Virus record (IMG/VR): IMGVR_UViG_3300035034_001897
Coordinates: 1 to 64,000 of that record
Source of the DNA: a virus
DNA: 64,000 nucleotides
Strand: one strand, 5' to 3'
Part shown: positions 5,976-36,816 of the stretch, piece after piece
Position numbering within the stretch: position 1 is the stretch's first letter
Layout of the letters: every line of letters starts with the position of its first letter
Notes under the pieces: generated by a model
The model's database searches: none
Seen by the model: only the letters and a program-made list of their open reading frames with translations
Told to the model about the DNA's origin: nothing
Program-made: the position numbers and the translations under genes

Positions 5976-6054
5976 TACAATTAGGGTCATTCATTAGTAG
6001 ATGTTTTTTGTCAATTTCACTACTATCGTTTGGCCTTAATTTATATACCAACTT

Positions 6055-6255
6055 ATGATAAGTCAATATAAAAACGTATCAACACACACCTACGCAGATG
6101 TAAGTACAGTATATTGGCAGGCAAGAGTGACTAGAAAAGGCAAGATATTAATTAATAAAAACTACAGAGATGAGCGTGTAGCTGCACTTGCAGTAGATAA
6201 AGCACTAATCAGCGCTGGATATGATCCAGTAAATATTCTCAAAAAAGTTCCCTAA
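6055..6255 (+). CDS. Stand-alone AP2-like DNA-binding domain protein
   Basis: YKNVS...YWQARVTRKGK...ERVAALAVD matches the AP2 pattern. Confidence 0.6.
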   Translation: MISQYKNVSTHTYADVSTVYWQARVTRKGKILINKNYRDERVAALAVDKALISAGYDPVNILKKVP

Positions 6256-6369
6256 AGTGTTGTCAGAAAGATATTAAAGTAGAATCAACAACGAAATTGC
6301 TCAACGTGAGAGTTTCATAAAATTGATACATACTTTAAAACAATACATCTAAAATAAATATTAGGTAAC

Positions 6370-6402
6370 TGTTGTGAGAAAGATATAAAGGTAGTATCTT
6401 TA
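6370..6402 (+). promoter_or_regulatory. Conserved early promoter, copy 2
   Basis: TGTTG-TGAGAAAGATATAAAGGTAG-TATCTTTA. Confidence 0.75.
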
Positions 6403-6437
6403 TGTAAAGGAAACAATAACACATTAAAATCGGAAAT

Positions 6438-10398: not shown

Positions 10399-11379
10399 AT
10401 GAAAACATTAAATCAACACAATTACAACGGTATAGATGCAACTATCATAGCAGATAGTAAGAACGAAGTAGGTAATCGTATCACATCATTCATCATCACA
10501 TTACCTAGAATTGTACTTGCAGAACTCAACACGCACAGAGCATTAACTAGAAACAGTGCATCAAGTAGAGCAGTTCCTCACAAAGTGATGGTGCAGAAAT
10601 GTATTGACACACCATTCATTCCAATCAAATGGATGAAAGATCACTCAGGAATGCAAGGAAATGATTTCTTTGAAGAGCAGAAAGATATAGATTATTTAAC
10701 TAACGATTGGTTAGAGGCTAGAGATAGTGCGGTAACTCACGCTGAAAGAATGAGTAGTGGTGGACTAACAAAACAGATTGTTAACAGATTACTAGAACCC
10801 TTCATGTGGCACACGGTTATTTGTACGGCAACTGAGTGGGAAAACTTCTATGCATTACGAGCACACGATGCTGCAGAAATACACATAGCGAAGTTAGCAG
10901 ATATGATGCTAGAACAAGCAAACTTGAGCGAACCTAAGCTGTTACAAGCTGGTGAGTGGCACATTCCATTTGGAGACGAGATGGATTCTATGAGAATCAT
11001 AGATTGCATCAACGAATTACGTATCAATGGAACATTTGATAGTAATGGAGACCTTGAACAGCAAATCGCTAAAGTAAAAGTGATGATTGCTACTGCAAGA
11101 TGTGCAAGAGTGAGTTATCTTAACTTTGAAGGTAAAGACGACTACGATGCAGACATCAAATTACACAATAGACTGAGTGGTATGGCACACTGGTCACCAT
11201 TCGAGCATTGTGCACAAGCGATGTGTGAAAGAGACTTTGAGCCATTCGATCATATGGAAGGTGCAGTAGATTGGATTAACGATCTATTTGGATGGTCAGG
11301 TAACTTTAAAGGATTTGTTCAGTATCGTAAAACGTTTGCAGGAGAAAATAAATCAGATAATCGTTTAATAAAGAAATAA
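10399..11379 (+). CDS. thyX: Flavin-dependent thymidylate synthase (ThyX/Thy1)
   Basis: ELNTHR...RNSASSRA signature, R..EI segment, C-terminal HWSPFEH typical of phage Thy1. Confidence 0.9.
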   Translation: MKTLNQHNYNGIDATIIADSKNEVGNRITSFIITLPRIVLAELNTHRALTRNSASSRAVPHKVMVQKCIDTPFIPIKWMKDHSGMQGNDFFEEQKDIDYLTNDWLEARDSAVTHAERMSSGGLTKQIVNRLLEPFMWHTVICTATEWENFYALRAHDAAEIHIAKLADMMLEQANLSEPKLLQAGEWHIPFGDEMDSMRIIDCINELRINGTFDSNGDLEQQIAKVKVMIATARCARVSYLNFEGKDDYDADIKLHNRLSGMAHWSPFEHCAQAMCERDFEPFDHMEGAVDWINDLFGWSGNFKGFVQYRKTFAGENKSDNRLIKK

Positions 11380-12008: not shown

Positions 12009-12029
12009 ATTAAATTATTTTCGATTAAA

Positions 12030-12062
12030 TGTTGTCAGAAAGATATAAAGGTACTACCTTTA
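12030..12062 (+). promoter_or_regulatory. Conserved early promoter, copy 3 (upstream of small ORF and RNA array)
   Basis: TGTTG-TCAGAAAGATATAAAGGTAC-TACCTTTA. Confidence 0.75.
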
Positions 12063-12108
12063 TATCATAAGGAAATAGTAATAGTACAACATTTAAAAAT
12101 CGGAAATT

Positions 12109-12225
12109 ATGACACCAACACAAGTAGAAATCGCAACAGCAGTAACGATAGCAGTAGTATTAATCGTAATTTTCATCAAGTTCGGAGGACTGAGCGGTGG
12201 AGCACGAAACGCAATATTCAGATAA
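12109..12225 (+). CDS. 38 aa single-TM peptide (MTPTQVEIATAVTIAVVLIVIFIKFGG...), not in ORF track
   Basis: Follows the promoter and AATCGGAAATT-ATG motif as in the other early units. Confidence 0.65.
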   Translation: MTPTQVEIATAVTIAVVLIVIFIKFGGLSGGARNAIFR

Positions 12226-12349
12226 CATTTAAGATAGGTTACCAATCATAGTGTAGAGTCTTCTCAACCTAAAAGCACGTCTGCAAATTAGCAGAAAGAG
12301 AATCGCTAGGAGTGATTCAGAGAGGTACAGCAAACAAAAGTTCATTGAC

Positions 12350-12507
12350 ATATTGAAGTGAGAGAATGATCAAATAGGCAGTAGTCAATCTCGTACTATC
12401 TTATAGTACCAGACATTATGACAGAGCCATCGAAAGAATAGATCACTCATCTTGCGACTGGGAACGATGCGCTCGCAAGGTGTACTCTGAATCTTTCACT
12501 TCAATAT
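12350..12507 (+). ncRNA. Structured RNA module of unknown family
   Basis: 16 bp closing stem 12350-12365/12492-12507 (one G-U); inner stems 12393-12409 and 12448-12457/12473-12482. Confidence 0.65.
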
Positions 12508-12518
12508 AACTTAAACTA

Positions 12519-12581
12519 CCCTACGTGTAAATGCAATAATCTCCTCTTGCCAGGATCAAAGATTTACAGTTCTTTAAGGGG
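12519..12581 (+). ncRNA. Structured RNA module
   Basis: CCCT/AGGG and TGTAAAT (12526-32)/ATTTACA (12562-68) nested stems. Confidence 0.4.
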
Positions 12582-12607
12582 CGTGCAGATAAATGTGAGT
12601 CTGTAAC

Positions 12608-12685
12608 AAACACACTAGTGAGAGCCTTCGAGCCAATTTTCATTGGGAAGCAGTATCTAGCGAACGTATAACGGCTAGTGTGTTT
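12608..12685 (+). ncRNA. Structured RNA module
   Basis: 12 bp closing stem AAACACACTAGT/GCTAGTGTGTTT with inner CTTC-CCAAT/ATTGG-GAAG hairpin. Confidence 0.55.
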
Positions 12686-12692
12686 TAAAATA

Positions 12693-12768
12693 CAAGGTTT
12701 AGATCGTGGACACCTAATCAGTAGAATCGTGGCGTAACCTGAGTGAAATTAGATCTTATTAAACTTTG
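12693..12768 (+). ncRNA. Structured RNA module
   Basis: CAAGGTTTA/TAAACTTTG plus GATC/GATC stacked stems. Confidence 0.45.
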
Positions 12769-12997
12769 GTGATTCTTAGTGGAAAAGTGAAAGTAGTAGC
12801 TGAAAACCTCCGTTTCGAAAAGACGCTTGTGAAAGAATGTCCTGCTTACAATAGATTGCTGTGTGAGAACTTCAATTGGATTGAGATAGAAACGAAAGTA
12901 TTGAAGAAGTCTGTCTATCATCACTGACAGAGGGGTATAGAGTTAGCGTACGACAATAACTCTATATGCGACCGAAAAATCGATGATGTGGAATAAT

Positions 12998-13068
12998 ATG
13001 TGTGTAGCTCAGTAGGTAGAGCGCTGGTTAATACTTAGCGTCAGTGGTTCGATCCCACTCCACATTCA
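12998..13068 (+). tRNA. Atypical tRNA or tRNA-like element (apparent anticodon AAT, Ile)
   Basis: TAGCTCAGTAGGTAGAGC D arm and AGTGG-TTCGATC-CCACT T arm are canonical; anticodon arm GCTGG-TTAATAC-TTAGC; bulged acceptor stem, short core, no encoded CCA. Confidence 0.6.
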
Positions 13069-13073
13069 AATGA

Positions 13074-13211
13074 GGCATCGTTATGCAAAACTATTGTGAA
13101 GTTCCGTGATAAGTATCTTGAGGGTTGAGTGCACATACCGATAATAGAGAAAGTGGAACAGAACTGTAAGAAAGGAACAGTCTTTCAGTTCGTTGAAAGT
13201 AGAACGATGCT
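13074..13211 (+). ncRNA. Structured RNA module
   Basis: 9 bp closing stem GGCATCGTT/AACGATGCT; inner GTTCC/GGAAC and GAACTG/CAGTTC stems. Confidence 0.55.
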
Positions 13212-13226
13212 AAAGAATTGCTTTAT

Positions 13227-13306
13227 AGAGTGGCGTAATCAACTCTTGCAGTGGTGTAGGTAGGGAAGGAGATGTTTCCTCAATTAAATTCCCTAACTTC
13301 ACGCCA
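13227..13306 (+). ncRNA. Structured RNA module or 5' leader
   Basis: TGGTGT/ACGCCA and TAGGGAA/TTCCCTA nested stems; AGAGT/ACTCT hairpin. Confidence 0.4.
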
Positions 13307-13318
13307 AACAATAATATT

Positions 13319-13567
13319 ATGAAAAAGTTAATTTTTATATTACTAACAATATGCTGCATAAGTGTGCAAGCTCAGAGTAAGAAGGTTGTGATGACTATGG
13401 AGATCACTATACAAAGTGATAATCAATGTAAGTTAGATACTACTAAAGTGATTAAGAACATAAAAAAGGATACTTTATCGAAAGTAGTATTGGTCAAGAT
13501 AAATGCATTAATAGCATCGAAATCTAATGACAGTATCATCAAAAGTAGTTATTACGATTTTAAATAG
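13319..13567 (+). CDS. Small exported protein
   Basis: MKKLIFILLTICCISVQA-Q Sec signal with Gln at +1, Bacteroidota style. Confidence 0.6.
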   Translation: MKKLIFILLTICCISVQAQSKKVVMTMEITIQSDNQCKLDTTKVIKNIKKDTLSKVVLVKINALIASKSNDSIIKSSYYDFK

Positions 13568-13584
13568 TATATTTATCGAATAGA

Positions 13585-13790
13585 GAACTGAAACCGACCA
13601 GCTCTTAAAATATTAGAAGATGTAGGCAACTACATCAAGTGTACCAGCTGTATAGTAATATGTTGGATATGGGTGAAAGTTGGAATAAGTTATTTAGAAT
13701 ATACCAGCAACTAGCCAAGCACTTAGGAGTTTACAGCAAGAACTTAAATCGTTCCCGATAATCGATTTTATTTCGCGACCTCATTGAGGT
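13585..13790 (+). ncRNA. Structured RNA or 5' leader
   Basis: GATGTAG-GCAA-CTACATC GNRA hairpin (13619-36), AAGTGT/GCACTT and GCTCTTA/TAGGAGT long-range stems, three ACCAGC copies. Confidence 0.5.
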
Positions 13791-13821
13791 GCTAATTTTT
13801 AACTTAATACCCTTTTCAATA

Positions 13822-14187
13822 ATGAAAAAGTTTATTTTTACAGTGTTAGTGATGATTGCCTTCGTAGGAACATCATTCGCAACAACAGCCACAATCCAGT
13901 CAACCATTCAAGATGACCATCCAATCTTTGTATTAGATTACGATGTGAATATTACAGCTGGAGATTTCAATTTTGATGCAAACCTGGAAACATATACTGT
14001 CAAAGCAGTCACCGACGAGGTCGGATATGAACCCACATCACTTATTAAAAATACGAAAGCGTTAGCAGTACAGCCGATCACTTTATTTGAGAGGGCAATT
14101 TATCGATATGATAATCGAATGCCAATCAATAAATACATACAAGTAAAAAGTTATAAGCAGTTTGCCTCATACGACTTAATGATGTAG
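13822..14187 (+). CDS. Exported protein with signal peptide
   Basis: Likely start ATG 13822 (MKKFIFTVLVMIAFVGTSFA) rather than GTG 13789. Confidence 0.65.
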   Translation: MKKFIFTVLVMIAFVGTSFATTATIQSTIQDDHPIFVLDYDVNITAGDFNFDANLETYTVKAVTDEVGYEPTSLIKNTKALAVQPITLFERAIYRYDNRMPINKYIQVKSYKQFASYDLMM

Positions 14188-14210
14188 TAACAATGCTAAC
14201 AAATATATTG

Positions 14211-14242
14211 AAAGTCCTTAGCAAAAGTTAAGGACTTTTTTT
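14211..14242 (+). terminator. Rho-independent terminator
   Basis: AAAGTCCTTAGC-AAAA-GTTAAGGACTTT followed by T run. Confidence 0.85.
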
Positions 14243-14271: not shown

Positions 14272-15459
14272 ATGAACTTAGACGATCAAATTAGAAATAG
14301 CATTACACAAAGACGTGATGTCATTGCAGGTAACATAGTTAAAGGTAAACCATCTATGCCAATTGGAACCATTTCAAATGGTCGTAAAAAGATAGCAGAA
14401 GGTCAGTGGAGAGATGTTGTTGATGGAAACAAAAAGCCTAAACAAAACAAAGAGAAGATTAAACTCAGTGCAAAAGTGCTTGCATTAAATGAGAAACATC
14501 AACTCAGTCGATTGCCAATAGATATGCCTCATAATGAAGTGATCATCAATAAAGGTGAAGCGAAAAGTAATTGGATTCTCAAATGGATTGATCCTAAAAC
14601 ACAGAAGGCAGTTACAGCATATAGTAAAGCATTTCTCAAGAAGAATGCACAAGACAAATGGAAGCGTATAGAAAACGTATCTAAGAAAGATATCAGTGCA
14701 ATCAAGATTGGTGCAGACAAATTGATAGTAGGTAGTAATGCTGCTGAACAACAAAGTGGTGCCATAGTAAGCATCATCAGTCAAACTGGGTTGAGACCTG
14801 GAAGTAGAAGTGGTTTCAACAGCACACAAAACAGAGGAGTAAGTACACTCGCTAAAAAGAATATCAAGATTGAGGGAAGTAAAATCACTTTTGAATTCAA
14901 AGGTAAATCGTACAAGAACAACACTGCTGAGATAAATGATAGTGTATTAGCTAACTATCTCAGTGAAAGAATGAGTAAGGTTAAAGGAGAAGACTCCTTC
15001 ATATTCAATACTACAATTAACAAGGTAAGAGATGACTTTAAAGATAGTATCACACCAAATGATTCTATCAAACTCAAAGATATGCGAACATACATAGCAA
15101 CTGACATTGCGAGAGATATGTTAATGCACAATAAATTTGAAGTGCCTCAAAAAGGTGCAAAGAAAGCAATACAAGGTAAGTTGATGGAAGTATTTAAAGC
15201 TGTAAGTAATCAGCTGAACAATAGTCCTACAATGGCTAAAACAAGCTATATTCATCCTAACGTAATCAATGAATGGCTAGAAGGTTTAGGTGTGAAAGAA
15301 GCAGATATGTTTATGATGAAAGCTGTCAATTACACTGAGGCATTAAAAGCAATGAAACTTAGAAGAGACCCTGACAATATTGAGGGGGACGATAACGAAG
15401 ATTTTGACGATATTGATGAATATAATCTACCAGATTGGTGGGACCCAACATTACAATAA
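14272..15459 (+). CDS. DNA topoisomerase IB (bacterial/poxvirus type) with shared N-terminal leader
   Basis: Catalytic residues in GLRPG, FKGK, KDMRT and SYIHP. Confidence 0.88.
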   Translation: MNLDDQIRNSITQRRDVIAGNIVKGKPSMPIGTISNGRKKIAEGQWRDVVDGNKKPKQNKEKIKLSAKVLALNEKHQLSRLPIDMPHNEVIINKGEAKSNWILKWIDPKTQKAVTAYSKAFLKKNAQDKWKRIENVSKKDISAIKIGADKLIVGSNAAEQQSGAIVSIISQTGLRPGSRSGFNSTQNRGVSTLAKKNIKIEGSKITFEFKGKSYKNNTAEINDSVLANYLSERMSKVKGEDSFIFNTTINKVRDDFKDSITPNDSIKLKDMRTYIATDIARDMLMHNKFEVPQKGAKKAIQGKLMEVFKAVSNQLNNSPTMAKTSYIHPNVINEWLEGLGVKEADMFMMKAVNYTEALKAMKLRRDPDNIEGDDNEDFDDIDEYNLPDWWDPTLQ

Positions 15460-20584: not shown

Positions 20585-20595
20585 GATTCACTTAG

Positions 20596-20718
20596 GGAGT
20601 AGGTTTTTTAGAGCTTGGCCAAATTCACATCAAGCCCGAAGTTTAGTGTGCTACGACTGTCGCTCTCCCGTGTGTAATTCGGAGTGACGGTCAACAGTAG
20701 TTAAGGTGATCCTACTTT
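20596..20718 (+). ncRNA. Structured RNA of unknown family
   Basis: Closing stem GGAGTAGG/CCTACTTT, hairpin 20613-35, 12 bp G-U-rich stem 20655-66/20681-92. Confidence 0.55.
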
Positions 20719-20755
20719 AAATTCATTCTCGCCAAACATTAATCAAGTGAACACT

Positions 20756-20780
20756 AACACCTCTTCGGAGGTGTTTTTTA
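20756..20780 (+). terminator. Rho-independent terminator
   Basis: AACACCTC-TTCG-GAGGTGTT followed by T run. Confidence 0.9.
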
Positions 20781-20833
20781 TTTGGGTTGGTAATATTATT
20801 TTACTTATATTTAACAACTCAATTACACACATT

Positions 20834-21208
20834 ATGAAAACACAAGTTAGAAATTCAGGAAATATTAGTACTGGAGAAGTTAGATCATTTGAACACACAT
20901 TAAGTGCAGACAGTAAAATGGATAGCACTTTAACCATTCCAATGATCGGCTTTACTAAAGCCGCTGTAAGCATTCAAACGATCGGAGCAGTAGGAACGAG
21001 TGGCAATGTGTTAATTAAACAAAGCGTTCGTGAAGGAGGTCCTTATGCAGAGTTCACTGCACCAATCTCAAAAGCAATTGCAGCGAGTGGAACTGTAGAA
21101 GAATATGATATTGATGTGAGTGGTGGATATTTAATAGTAGATTTATCACAAGTTACTCAAGGAGATGAGGGAAGATTTGACATAGTAGTAATAATCAAAA
21201 GACAATAA
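20834..21208 (+). CDS. Small beta-rich protein, possibly virion-associated
   Basis: Start more likely ATG 20834 (MKTQVRN), after the terminator and TATATTTA element. Confidence 0.6.
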   Translation: MKTQVRNSGNISTGEVRSFEHTLSADSKMDSTLTIPMIGFTKAAVSIQTIGAVGTSGNVLIKQSVREGGPYAEFTAPISKAIAASGTVEEYDIDVSGGYLIVDLSQVTQGDEGRFDIVVIIKRQ

Positions 21209-25961: not shown

Positions 25962-26273
25962 ATGAAGGAAATTGAGCAAATTGATAAAGATCGAATAGAA
26001 ATTGTAGGACAGAAAGAGCAACCTAAAGAGACTAAGATTGTAGGCAGAATGAAGAAGATTAAAGGTCTAACTTTATATCAACTCGATACAAAGAGTGGTG
26101 TAATATCTAAAGCAAAAGTCGTCTCAGACACAGCAGACTTTAAAAATCCTAATAGAAAAATTGGAAAAGCAAAGTTTGAAGAAAACTGTCTCTACTTACA
26201 AGCATTAAATATTAAAAATGCTAAACGTAAGTTTGAAAAATTAGTTGATAAAATAATCGCATCGTCTAAATGA
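25962..26273 (+). CDS. Hypothetical basic protein
   Basis: ORF track. Confidence 0.6.
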   Translation: MKEIEQIDKDRIEIVGQKEQPKETKIVGRMKKIKGLTLYQLDTKSGVISKAKVVSDTADFKNPNRKIGKAKFEENCLYLQALNIKNAKRKFEKLVDKIIASSK

Positions 26274-26662
26274 AAAATCTATTCGCAGTACCATTTGATT
26301 CTTACCAAAGCACGAAAACAGATCAAGGTATTATTTACAATGTTATCGATAAAGAAGGAAGTGTCTATATTCAATGTTGGGTAGCACACAGACCTTATGC
26401 AGATCACGATTTAACGATACAAGCTATCTCAGGAGCACCTAGTAGTGTACGTGATAAGTTTACTGAATTAATGAATGAAGTGTTTGGAGTAGGGCAATGG
26501 ATCGTTCAGAGCAGATTTAGTGTAGAGAGTGTAAGAAAATCAGGTGCATTACAAACACAAAAATTCATAGACGATTGTCAAAGCATTTCTTACAGCGATA
26601 GAAGTAAAAAAGCAAATGTGCAACCAGCTCAAATTCAAGTGATTGGAGGACTAACTTATTAA
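26270..26662 (+). CDS. Hypothetical protein
   Basis: ORF track. Confidence 0.55.
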   Translation: MKNLFAVPFDSYQSTKTDQGIIYNVIDKEGSVYIQCWVAHRPYADHDLTIQAISGAPSSVRDKFTELMNEVFGVGQWIVQSRFSVESVRKSGALQTQKFIDDCQSISYSDRSKKANVQPAQIQVIGGLTY

Positions 26663-26933
26663 AACCGTCATTGTTAGATATCGACTAGAGTTAGAGATCT
26701 TTTATCAAGAGATCCGACTAAACATAGACGTTGATAAACACAATACAGATGAATTAATTAGAAAGTACTGTCAAAGATATTTCGACTTAAATTTTAGAAA
26801 AAAACCAGTTGTAGCCTTTTATGTTAGTAAAATCTTACGTACCTAAAGAAAGGCTTGGTAGTTTAACTCAAAATGGTGAGATTTATCCATTAAGTTTACT
26901 CAACAATAGTAAAAGATGTAACAAAACTCTTCA

Positions 26934-35351: not shown

Positions 35352-35384
35352 TAAAGATACTACCTTTATATCTTTCTCACAACA
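35352..35384 (-). promoter_or_regulatory. Conserved early promoter, copy 5
   Basis: Reverse complement reads TGTTG-TGAGAAAGATATAAAGGTAG-TATCTTTA, identical to copy 2. Confidence 0.8.
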
Positions 35385-35473: not shown

Positions 35474-36034
35474 ATGGCAAAAGTAAAAACAAACAAATCG
35501 TTCGAGTTCGGAAAGACAAGAGTGACTTCAGTAGAGACTTTAGAGTTTGATGATCAAGGAATCTCACAAGAGATTTCAAATGAAGATGCAGCATTGCTTG
35601 TGAAAGCATCACCTTCACTAACATTAGTGCAAGAGCAAGATCAACTACCAGACCCATCATTAAACGAAGAGGGTGATGTAGGCAATAAAAAACTTGATGA
35701 AACTCCTCTAATCAAAGAAGTAAAGCAAGAAGCTATCAAACCAAAAGCAGAGGTAACTGACGCTATCGTAACAGATGCAGCAGATGTTATTGAAGTGAAA
35801 GGAGAAGTTGAAATTATCGAAGATGTAGTTGAGGGAGATAAGGTTGAAGTTGTTGAAACAGCACTTGACGATGCAATTACGCCAACATTCACTAAAGAGC
35901 AATTAGGTGAAATGGGAATGGGTGATTTGAGAGATGCTTTAATTAAAGCTGGAGTAGCTGAAATTGAAGTCGAGAAGTATAAAGGAAGAGAGATGAAAGA
36001 TGAATTAGTTGACTTCGCTTTTAGCAAACTATAA
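35474..36034 (+). CDS. Acidic hypothetical protein of the head/neck region
   Basis: ORF track; position. Confidence 0.6.
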   Translation: MAKVKTNKSFEFGKTRVTSVETLEFDDQGISQEISNEDAALLVKASPSLTLVQEQDQLPDPSLNEEGDVGNKKLDETPLIKEVKQEAIKPKAEVTDAIVTDAADVIEVKGEVEIIEDVVEGDKVEVVETALDDAITPTFTKEQLGEMGMGDLRDALIKAGVAEIEVEKYKGREMKDELVDFAFSKL

Positions 36035-36816
36035 TGGCTACACTATCATATTCATTAAAATCAAGTAAGAACGATTTGCCAATTTCTCCTGAGGAGTTGG
36101 CAAATCGTTACTTCTTTGGGATACCTATAAAAGATCCTAACGGAACCGTAATGAATAATGCTAACATTGGATTTTATATCAATGCAGCAGTGCAATCTAT
36201 TGAAGGACTGTTAAACATAAAACTAACCAAACAAGTTATTGAAGAATCTTTATCATATCATTTGAATGATTATGCATCTTGGGGATATATTCCTACAAGT
36301 TTTCCAGTACTTAAAGCTGGAGGATTAGCAGGGTTTTTAGGAAAAGTTCAGCAAGTAAAATTTCCTGCACAATGGTTAAGTGTTAAAAGAACAAACGATC
36401 CGACTGGAGCTCATAGAAAAATACAGATAGTACCTACATCAGGAAATGTTGAACACGGAAGTGTTGAGTATAGTGGAATAAGTCAATATATGGGATGGTT
36501 CGGTCAGCAAACAATTCCAGACTATTGGACAGTAAAGTATTGCACATCGTTTGATATAATTCCAGCAGACATTGCAGATGCAGTAGGAAAACTAGCTGCA
36601 ATTAACATATTCCATCAATTAGGAGACATTATTTTAGGTGCTGGTATAGCCTCTCAAAGTATAGGTATAGATGGACTATCTCAAAGTATATCGACAACTT
36701 CATCAGCAACCAACGCTGGATATGGAGCAAGAGTTACTGGATATCTTGCAGATTTAAAGCAAGCGAGAACAGATTTAAAAAATAAATACGACGGAATAGC
36801 GTTAAGCATAATGTAA
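36034..36816 (+). CDS. Head-tail adaptor/neck protein
   Basis: GDIILGAGIASQSIGIDGLSQS motif of SPO1/Twort-like neck proteins. Confidence 0.7.
   Translation: MATLSYSLKSSKNDLPISPEELANRYFFGIPIKDPNGTVMNNANIGFYINAAVQSIEGLLNIKLTKQVIEESLSYHLNDYASWGYIPTSFPVLKAGGLAGFLGKVQQVKFPAQWLSVKRTNDPTGAHRKIQIVPTSGNVEHGSVEYSGISQYMGWFGQQTIPDYWTVKYCTSFDIIPADIADAVGKLAAINIFHQLGDIILGAGIASQSIGIDGLSQSISTTSSATNAGYGARVTGYLADLKQARTDLKNKYDGIALSIM

What the first reader, a model, noticed from the sequence alone, without database searches (positions are those of the whole stretch)
12230..13310. About 1.1 kb array of stem-closed structured RNA modules behind an early promoter
Seen: in an otherwise gene-dense genome this tract has no credible ORF and is visibly more GC-rich. 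It divides into consecutive units, each closed by its own terminal helix and separated by short A-rich linkers: 12235-12271, 12350-12507, 12519-12581, 12608-12685, 12693-12768, about 12805-12936, 12936-12966, the tRNA-like element 12998-13068, 13074-13211 and 13227-13306. The stems contain G-U pairs consistent with + strand RNA, and the units do not repeat each other. I do not recognise tmRNA, RNase P, SRP, hammerhead or CRISPR signatures. Inference: a polycistronic small-RNA operon processed like a tRNA cluster (decoys, antitoxin mimics or ribozymes), or one large multidomain RNA of the GOLLD/ROOL kind, which also lie near phage tRNAs.
Basis: partly seen in the sequence, partly recalled or inferred. 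Interest (0 to 1): 0.82.

Follow-up and report, generated by a model that had tools for sequence, protein, structure and literature searches.

The report
Orphan noncoding RNA island in a phage
A 1.1 kb gene-free, GC-enriched stretch behind a phage promoter holds a malformed tRNA-like element and one strongly stem-closed 158-nt domain, so it is probably a noncoding RNA locus, but it has no relatives anywhere and most of the proposed RNA modules fold no better than shuffled sequence.

Summary
The tract (12226-13318) is real non-coding DNA in a gene-dense lake phage, probably of Bacteroidota. Stops are random-like in all six frames under any code, and codon scores are negative throughout. GC is 0.394, against 0.32 in the flanks and 0.27-0.34 in other intergenic gaps. 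It lies behind one copy of a seven-copy phage promoter motif.

The "array of structured modules" is only partly supported:
- The 158-nt unit 12350-12507 stands out. Its 16-bp closing helix is the longest long-range helix in the 79-kb genome.
- The hairpin 12935-12967 and the aberrant tRNA-like element (31.7 bits) also hold up.
- Five of the eleven units fold like shuffles.
- The whole tract gives z = -1.1, and locally stable folds are only slightly denser than in coding DNA.

No Rfam family matches: GOLLD, ROOL, tmRNA and ribozymes are all negative. The only other copy found is 100% identical, so covariation cannot be tested. No RNA data exist.

Best reading (about 0.4): a transcribed RNA island processed into stable small RNAs, like phage K lnc001/lnc002 or T4 RNAC/RNAD. 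Two relatives carry islands with tmRNA and tRNAs, one of them the same size and GC. Decay of such an island is the main rival.

The parts
12026..12070 (+). Promoter-type element: one copy of a phage motif TGTTGnnAGAAAGATATAAAGGTAnTAnCTTTAT that contains a 12+12 palindrome
   Evidence: Copies lie at 863, 6382, 12042, 18484, 66710 and 77050 (+) and 35372 (-), each upstream of a gene on its own strand. It resembles the Bacteroidota -33 TTTG / -7 TAnnTTTG consensus (own knowledge). Promoter activity and timing are inferred.
12109..12225 (+). 38-aa hydrophobic small ORF between the promoter and the tract
   Evidence: No family match. Whether it is translated is not shown.
12226..13318 (+). The non-coding, GC-enriched tract as a whole
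   Evidence: No Rfam family at gathering score.
12230..12259 (+). 5' arm of a predicted interrupted 23-bp long-range helix that closes the tract
   Evidence: Present in the MFE and the centroid. Duplex energy is -19.9 kcal/mol, reached by 0.85% of genome windows. A 120x120 closure test is reached by 3.3% of windows. Suggestive only.
13220..13248 (+). 3' arm of the same predicted long-range helix
12280..12318 (+). Two small hairpins (12280-12295 and 12300-12318)
   Evidence: Kept in the centroid. RNALfold 12258-12329 gives z = -3.9.
12350..12507 (+). 158-nt stem-closed domain: a 16-bp closing helix (one G-U) around a three-way interior
   Evidence: z = -4.5. MFE equals centroid for the interior. 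It is the longest helix of span >100 nt in the 79-kb genome. No structural homologue in 944 kb of related phage DNA.
12608..12685 (+). 78-nt unit closed by a 12-bp helix
   Evidence: (z = -1.8). A 12-bp helix is roughly expected once by chance in this tract (my estimate from the pairing probability).
12693..12768 (+). 76-nt unit with a 10-bp closing helix and an unstable interior
   Evidence: z = +0.17.
12935..12967 (+). 11-bp hairpin
   Evidence: z = -3.7.
12998..13068 (+). Aberrant tRNA-like element. D and T arms are canonical and the anticodon is AAU. Nucleotide 26 is missing, the variable loop has 3 nt, the acceptor stem is mismatched or bulged, and no CCA is encoded
   Evidence: RF00005 31.7 bits against a gathering score of 29. 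ARAGORN cloverleaf. Alignment with tRNAs of relatives shows a 3-nt deficit.
13074..13211 (+). 138-nt unit closed by a 9-bp helix
   Evidence: z = -1.9. Kept in the centroid.
13251..13306 (+). Long imperfect hairpin at the 3' end of the tract
   Evidence: RNALfold z = -3.8.
13319..14187 (+). Two small downstream genes (82 aa with a signal peptide; 132 aa, weak DUF6520 match), probably on the same transcript
   Evidence: Codon scores are positive.
14210..14239 (+). First strong intrinsic terminator downstream (13-bp stem plus T run)

Best explanation
The tract is a transcribed noncoding RNA island of the phage. Transcription starts at the promoter-type element at 12026-12070, passes a 38-aa ORF, and runs through the 1.1 kb tract and two small genes to the terminator at 14210-14239.

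Within the tract, a tRNA-derived element (12998-13068) and a few long helices act as folding and processing units. These are above all the 16-bp stem closing 12350-12507, and possibly the end-to-end helix 12230-12259/13220-13248. RNase P/Z would cut at the tRNA-like element. RNase III or E would cut at the long stems and the A-rich linkers. The result would be several stable small RNAs of still unknown target, as in the T4 tRNA region (RNAC, RNAD) and next to the tRNAs of phage K (lnc001, lnc002).

Shown: the tract is non-coding, GC-enriched and behind the promoter motif; the tRNA-like fold and the helices are there. Inferred: transcription, processing and any function.
For: - Non-coding under every code, and no coding signal in any frame.
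- GC is 0.394, the top 1.7% of windows, while ordinary intergenic gaps of this genome are 0.27-0.34. In AT-rich genomes this pattern marks structured RNA genes rather than decaying DNA (own knowledge of GC/length screens of intergenic regions).
- Same orientation as all genes, and directly behind one of seven copies of a conserved promoter-type motif. No strong terminator until 14210.
- A tRNA fold above the Rfam threshold.
- The longest long-range helix of the genome closes a 158-nt domain with z = -4.5.
- Stems of 9 bp or more are twice the shuffle expectation on + and not on -.
- Relative G002 has a 1153-nt island at GC 0.39 holding tRNA-Ile, a tmRNA and tRNA-Met. G003 has a tmRNA with tRNA-Gln.
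- Precedents: phage K lncRNAs of 635 and 1154 nt beside tRNAs, one from an early promoter (PMC9241854); T4 RNAC and RNAD (PMC3014915).
Against: - No homologue except a 100% identical copy, so there is no covariation test and no sign of purifying selection.
- The whole tract folds no better than shuffles, z = -1.1.
- Locally stable folds are only slightly denser than in coding DNA.
- Five of the eleven units have z near 0.
- The tRNA-like element is malformed and could be a pseudogene.
- No RNA-processing or RNA-binding gene was recognised nearby.
Confidence: 0.4

Rival explanations
1. Decaying remnant. The lineage carries tRNA/tmRNA islands. In this phage the island has lost its working genes, leaving a tRNA pseudogene and sequence that still has RNA-gene composition but no function.
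For: - Relatives G002 and G003 have bona fide tmRNAs (80 and 71 bits) and tRNAs of 52-72 bits in islands; G002's has the same size and GC.
- The element here scores only 31.7 bits, lacks 3 nt between the D and T arms, and has a mismatched acceptor stem.
- Its D arm is 88% identical to that of G002 tRNA-Ile(GAU).
- There is no overall folding signal.
Against: - No trace of tmRNA or further tRNAs even at E <= 10, or with ARAGORN thresholds lowered to 80%.
- The relatives' islands are syntenic with another gap of this genome (20585-20746), not with this tract.
- Decaying DNA in a 35% GC phage should drift towards the 0.27-0.34 of other gaps, and dense phage genomes usually delete it (inference).
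- The 16-bp helix is intact with one G-U.
Confidence: 0.25
2. One large multidomain RNA of about 1 kb. It would be closed by the 12230-12259/13220-13248 helix, with a tRNA-like domain inside, and would be functionally akin to GOLLD/ROOL-type phage RNAs.
For: - The MFE and centroid keep a 23-bp end-to-end helix and a second closure at 12322-12346/12786-12810. Each is reached by fewer than 1% of genome windows paired with the same 5' arm.
- GOLLD and ROOL lie near phage tRNA islands, and tRNAs sometimes sit in the GOLLD linker (PMC12286853).
- The size matches phage K lnc002.
Against: - The Rfam GOLLD (RF02032) and ROOL (RF03087) models give no match at E <= 10 in the whole genome.
- Only about 250 nt lie 3' of the tRNA-like element, against a conserved GOLLD 3' domain of about 416 positions.
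- The closure helices were picked from the MFE, so the tests are not independent. The unbiased closure test is reached by 3.3% of windows.
- Whole-tract z = -1.1.
Confidence: 0.15
3. A DNA-level or passive element. For example, a MITE-like insertion bounded by the 16-bp inverted repeats, an attP-type tRNA fragment, a replication or regulatory region, or simply a long untranslated spacer of the mRNA.
For: - The strongest statistical signal is a 16-bp inverted repeat around 126 bp, which is equally a DNA feature.
- z is similar on both strands for that unit, -4.5 and -4.2.
- The - strand of the whole tract scores slightly better than the + strand.
Against: - No second copy of the 158-bp element in this genome, in relatives, or in 185,579 species genomes with these termini.
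- I saw no target-site duplication in the flanking bases.
- No tyrosine integrase in the record.
- No iterons or direct repeats.
- Elevated GC is atypical of origins (inference).
Confidence: 0.1

Closest known systems
Staphylococcus phage K lnc001 and lnc002 (Kayvirus, Herelleviridae)
   Same: Long ORF-free transcripts (635 and 1154 nt) directly beside phage tRNA genes. One is driven by its own early promoter and is highly abundant. Function is unknown and there is no Rfam family. The phage has a capsid of the same broad lineage.
   Different: No sequence similarity. The phage K RNAs are AT-rich (GC 0.29-0.35) and adjoin normal tRNAs. Here GC is enriched, and the only tRNA is aberrant and embedded in the tract.
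T4 tRNA-region small stable RNAs RNAC and RNAD
   Same: Non-tRNA stable RNAs co-transcribed with tRNAs and released by tRNA-type processing. Role unknown (PMC3014915).
   Different: T4 has eight working tRNAs and two small RNAs. Here there is one malformed tRNA-like element and about 1 kb of other sequence. Processing is not shown.
GOLLD (RF02032) and ROOL (RF03087) large phage RNAs
   Same: Large noncoding RNAs of phages, often near tRNA islands. GOLLD was first seen in lake metagenomes and sometimes has a tRNA in its linker.
   Different: No match to either covariance model. The domain sizes do not fit. No evidence of an ornate conserved fold.
tmRNA/tRNA islands of related phages (G002 71787-72939; G003 26105-26879)
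   Same: Intergenic RNA-gene islands of about 1 kb at GC 0.39 in related phages; G002's also includes a tRNA-Ile.
   Different: No tmRNA here. No sequence similarity beyond the tRNA D arm. A different genomic position.

Membership tests
tRNA (RF00005) | Cloverleaf with D, anticodon and T arms, scoring above the family threshold | tested here: met
   31.7 bits against a gathering score of 29, E = 0.0003 in the 1.7-kb search. It was missed by the whole-window gathering run. ARAGORN draws a cloverleaf.
tRNA (RF00005) | Canonical dimensions: 7-bp acceptor stem, nucleotide 26, a 4-5 nt variable loop, and an anticodon usual for bacteria | tested here: not met
   5-6 acceptor pairs with a mismatch or bulge. 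20 nt between the D and T stems against 23. A34 in an Ile anticodon. So it is tRNA-derived or tRNA-like, and not shown to be a working tRNA.
GOLLD (RF02032) | Match to the conserved 3' domain model | tested here: not met
   No match at E <= 10 in the 79-kb genome, with 11 candidates scored. None in cmscan.
ROOL (RF03087) | Match to the covariance model | tested here: inconclusive
   No match. The control genomes also gave nothing, so that one run was not validated on a known carrier.
tmRNA (RF00023 and permuted forms) | tRNA-like domain plus a tag reading frame recognised by ARAGORN or Infernal | tested here: not met
   No hit at E <= 10, and none with ARAGORN -m at a lowered threshold. The same tools find tmRNAs in G002 and G003.
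Self-cleaving ribozymes (hammerhead, twister, HDV-like including tRNA-associated theta ribozymes) | Match to the family model, or to a descriptor placed at the tRNA 3' end | tested here: inconclusive
   No Rfam ribozyme model matches at E <= 10. The RNArobo theta descriptor (PMC10879173) was not available to run.
MITE-type mobile element (for 12350-12507) | Multiple copies with conserved terminal inverted repeats, and a target-site duplication | tested here: not met
   A single copy in this genome and in relatives. No hit for the two termini at this spacing in 185,579 species genomes. I saw no direct duplication in the flanking bases.
Structured RNA in general | Compensatory base changes among homologues | not testable with these tools
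   The only other copy (L084) and four metagenome runs are identical.

The most novel reading that the evidence does not exclude
The tract encodes a previously undescribed large phage RNA of about 1 kb, or a set of co-processed RNAs built around an embedded non-decoding tRNA-like domain. It would be a new class alongside GOLLD, ROOL and the phage K lncRNAs, perhaps serving as a scaffold or decoy for host tRNA-handling enzymes.
Probability: 0.15. Interest if true: 0.7.

Novelty: new variant of a known kind. Interest (0 to 1): 0.4.

Why it matters
Phage noncoding RNAs next to tRNA genes are abundant during infection, yet none has a known function. This applies to GOLLD, ROOL, phage K lnc001/002 and T4 RNAC/RNAD. 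Another, sequence-unrelated example would widen the set in which the shared logic can be sought, namely tRNA-linked processing and possible decoy or scaffold roles. This one comes from a phage that is probably of Bacteroidota, and its tRNA-like element cannot be an ordinary tRNA.

At present it is a single-genome candidate without expression or conservation data. Its value is as a lead, not a result.

Tried and rejected
HOMOLOGUE HUNTS, ALL EMPTY
- INPHARED blastn.
- 49 IMG/VR loci sharing ThyX.
- Five capsid relatives, searched over their whole records.
- 19 metagenome loci sharing TopoIB. Only L084 matches, and it is 100% identical.
- IMG/VR with the 132-aa and TopoIB proteins.
- Two 22-23-nt word scans of IMG/VR.
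- A single-sequence covariance model of 12350-12507 over 944 kb.
- A capsid scan of species genomes.

TOOLS AND DATA NOT AVAILABLE
The contigs of the TopoIB relatives P0002-P0004 could not be fetched that way.
- Sequencing runs: four lake-water DNA runs hold the tract, with no variant. No RNA holder is listed.

IDEAS REJECTED
- Alternative genetic code or pseudogene.
- Further tRNA-like units. None at E <= 10, nor with ARAGORN at 80% thresholds. The hits at 70% with introns allowed are implausible.
- Homology to phage K lnc001/lnc002.
- attP idea: no tyrosine integrase.

ERRORS OF MINE
- An apparent 1.3-kb gap in relative G001 was an artefact of my ORF finder. It is an open-ended 565-aa ORF.
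- I first queried a wrong Rfam accession for GOLLD. RF01998 is a group II intron fragment.
- One whole-tract shuffle run timed out and was repeated with a span limit.

Full report
CONTEXT

The window is the first 64 kb of a 78.9-kb IMG/VR virus record, estimated 76% complete. Nearly all genes are on the + strand and GC is 0.346. The capsid is distantly related to those of Bacteroides and Chryseobacterium phages and of SPO1-type myoviruses, at 43% or less. Small secreted proteins have Bacteroidota-style signal peptides. The DNA is found in lake-water metagenomes.

Gene order around the tract is as follows:
- ThyX, 10399-11379
- three small ORFs
- a promoter-type element
- a 38-aa ORF, 12109-12225
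- the tract, 12226-13318
- two small genes, 13319-13567 and 13789-14187
- a strong terminator, 14210-14239
- a type IB topoisomerase, 14272-15459

IS THE TRACT NON-CODING?

Yes.
- Each + frame has 24-30 stops in 364 codons, about the random expectation. No reassignment of one or two stop codons opens a + strand frame.
- A codon-usage log-likelihood trained on 62 long genes is negative in all six frames from 12230 to 13250. The neighbouring small genes score +0.1 to +0.3. This argues against a recent pseudogene as well.
- Apart from a 462-nt gap at 5976-6437, it is the only ORF-free gap above 350 nt in the genome.

COMPOSITION

- GC is 0.394, the top 1.7% of 1093-nt windows. Only the capsid gene and one tail gene equal it. 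The flanks are 0.32.
- Ordinary intergenic gaps of this genome are 0.27-0.34. The two outliers are this tract and a 158-nt gap at 20585-20742, at 0.43.

PROMOTER

The sequence TGTTGTCAGAAAGATATAAAGGTACTACCTTTAT at 12029-12062 belongs to a motif found at 863, 6382, 12042, 18484, 66710 and 77050 on + and at 35372 on -. Every copy lies upstream of a gene on its own strand.

It contains TTG, then about 20 nt, then TAnnTTTA. That resembles the Bacteroidota -33/-7 consensus (my knowledge, not tested). No further copy and no strong terminator lies between it and 14210. The tract is therefore most likely transcribed on the + strand together with the small genes. Nothing shows that the promoter is 'early'.

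STRUCTURE STATISTICS

- 12350-12507: z = -4.5
- 12936-12966: z = -3.7
- 12272-12349, 12608-12685, 13074-13211 and 13227-13306: z = -1.8 to -2.0
- 12235-12271, 12519-12581, 12693-12768, 12805-12936 and the tRNA-like element: z = -0.6 to +0.2

The unit boundaries were chosen to end in helices, so I also ran boundary-free tests:
- The whole tract with pair span up to 180 gives z = -1.1 on + and -2.0 on -.
- Fixed 150-nt windows average +0.12, against -0.32 for the first 32 kb.
- RNALfold with SVM z-scores finds 3 non-overlapping hits at z <= -3.5 in 1.3 kb, against 1.41 per kb genome-wide. It finds 1 at z <= -4, against 0.63 per kb.
- Uninterrupted stems of 9 bp or more (at most 2 G-U, span up to 175) number 12 on +. 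Shuffles give 5.6 +/- 2.3, and 1 of 200 reach 12. The - strand has 6. Other windows of the genome give 7.0 +/- 3.2.

Overall there is a modest, + strand-biased excess of long stems, but no general excess of folding energy.

One feature is clearly unusual. The 16-bp helix 12350-12365/12492-12507, with one G-U, is the longest helix of span over 100 nt in the whole genome. The only helices of 16 bp or more with as few G-U pairs are short hairpins at 852 and 36070. The interior of that unit folds into a well-defined three-way shape in which MFE equals centroid, but with z of only -1.5 on either strand.

The full-length MFE and centroid also keep two long-range closures: an interrupted 23-bp helix 12230-12259/13220-13248, and a second at 12322-12346/12786-12810. 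Each arm pairs better with its partner than with more than 99% of genome windows. These helices were selected by the fold itself, however. An unbiased closure test is reached by 3.3% of 1093-nt windows.

THE tRNA-LIKE ELEMENT

Infernal gives 31.7 bits against a threshold of 29, and only when the search space is small. ARAGORN calls Ile with anticodon AAU.
- The D and T arms are canonical.
- The acceptor stem has 5-6 pairs with a mismatch or bulge.
- Nucleotide 26 is absent and the variable loop has 3 nt, so 20 nt separate the D and T stems where 23 are expected.
- The anticodon stem ends in two G-U pairs, and no CCA is encoded.
- tRNAs of related phages score 52-72 bits.
- Its D arm is 88% identical to that of tRNA-Ile(GAU) in relative G002.

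It is tRNA-derived. Whether it decodes is open. AUU is the phage's commonest Ile codon, at 38 per 1000, which is compatible with decoding but proves nothing. No other tRNA-like unit appears at E <= 10 or with ARAGORN thresholds lowered to 80%.

KNOWN FAMILIES

Nothing in Rfam 15 reaches gathering score in the window. In the 1.7-kb search at E <= 10, only the tRNA model and a chance sRNA hit outside the tract appear. GOLLD (RF02032) and ROOL (RF03087) give nothing in the whole genome. tmRNA is absent.

RELATIVES

- The closest phages by capsid (81%, 79% and 74% identity: G001, G002, G003) share most structural and replication genes but not this locus.
- The only other copy of the tract is a 5.8-kb metagenome contig that is 100% identical over 4.4 kb.
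- Four lake metagenome runs carry it without a single variant.
- Phages with a TopoIB at 40-56% identity carry it as the C-terminal part of a protein of 875-1241 aa, with no non-coding tract upstream.

Covariation therefore cannot be assessed.

What the relatives do show is that the lineage keeps RNA islands. G002 has a 1153-nt gap at GC 0.39 with tRNA-Ile(GAU), a tmRNA (80 bits) and tRNA-Met. G003 has a tmRNA (71 bits) and tRNA-Gln. Those islands sit just upstream of the homologue of window gene 20747-21208. They are therefore syntenic with the other GC-rich gap (20585-20746), not with this tract.

INTERPRETATION

- Most likely reading (0.4): a functional, transcribed RNA island processed into small stable RNAs. 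Composition, length, orientation, promoter context, the tRNA-derived element, the exceptional 16-bp stem and the lineage's habit of carrying RNA islands all point this way.
- Single large RNA (0.15): a less likely variant.
- Decaying remnant (0.25): the malformed tRNA, the absence of any folding-energy excess and the orphan status keep this reading alive.
- DNA-level or passive reading (0.1): not excluded, because the strongest signal is an inverted repeat that scores alike on both strands.

The closest precedents are architectural, not homologous:
- phage K lnc001 and lnc002, 635 and 1154 nt, beside tRNAs (PMC9241854);
- T4 RNAC and RNAD (PMC3014915);
- GOLLD and ROOL near phage tRNA islands, with tRNAs sometimes inside the GOLLD linker (PMC12286853).

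VERDICT

This is a real and unusual non-coding tract and a reasonable ncRNA candidate. The picture of ten discrete structured modules is over-read. No known family fits, and the decisive evidence (expression, ends, covariation) is not obtainable here. Interest is moderate.

Noticed in passing
window 863, 6382, 12042, 18484 (+), 35372 (-); genome 66710, 77050 (+): A seven-copy promoter-type motif, TGTTGnnAGAAAGATATAAAGGTAGTATCTTTAT, with an internal 12+12 palindrome. Each copy lies upstream of a gene on its own strand. My strict pattern did not find it in relatives G001-G003. It could be a promoter with an operator for a dimeric regulator.
   Followed up: partly
window 20585-20746: A 160-nt GC-rich (0.43) intergenic element. 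It sits exactly where relatives G002 and G003 carry a tmRNA plus tRNAs, upstream of the homologue of gene 20747-21208. It is not a tmRNA by Rfam. One hairpin (about 20613-20635, loop CAAATTCACAT) is conserved in G001, with two compensatory pair changes.
   Followed up: partly
L077 11983-12275 (-) and L080 6105-6457 (+): The related phages G002 and G003 encode bona fide tmRNAs (80 and 71 bits) next to tRNAs. Phage-borne tmRNAs are uncommon.
   Followed up: no
G003 90676-90751 (L083): ARAGORN calls a tRNA with anticodon UUA, an ochre-suppressor type, in relative G003. TAA is by far the commonest stop in the window's genome, 60 of 72 long genes.
   Followed up: no
window 14272-15459; L086, L089-L091, L093-L096: The 395-aa type IB topoisomerase stands alone here. 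In more distant phages the homologous domain is the C-terminal part of proteins of 875-1241 aa.
   Followed up: no
window 36063-36117: The strongest local fold in the window (18-bp hairpin, z = -7.5), just inside the start of gene 36034-36816.
   Followed up: no
L104 833-969 (-), Staphylococcus phage K: The 3' part of the phage K lnc001 region matches the DUF3800-I RNA model at 43.4 bits, just under its gathering score of 44.2.
   Followed up: no
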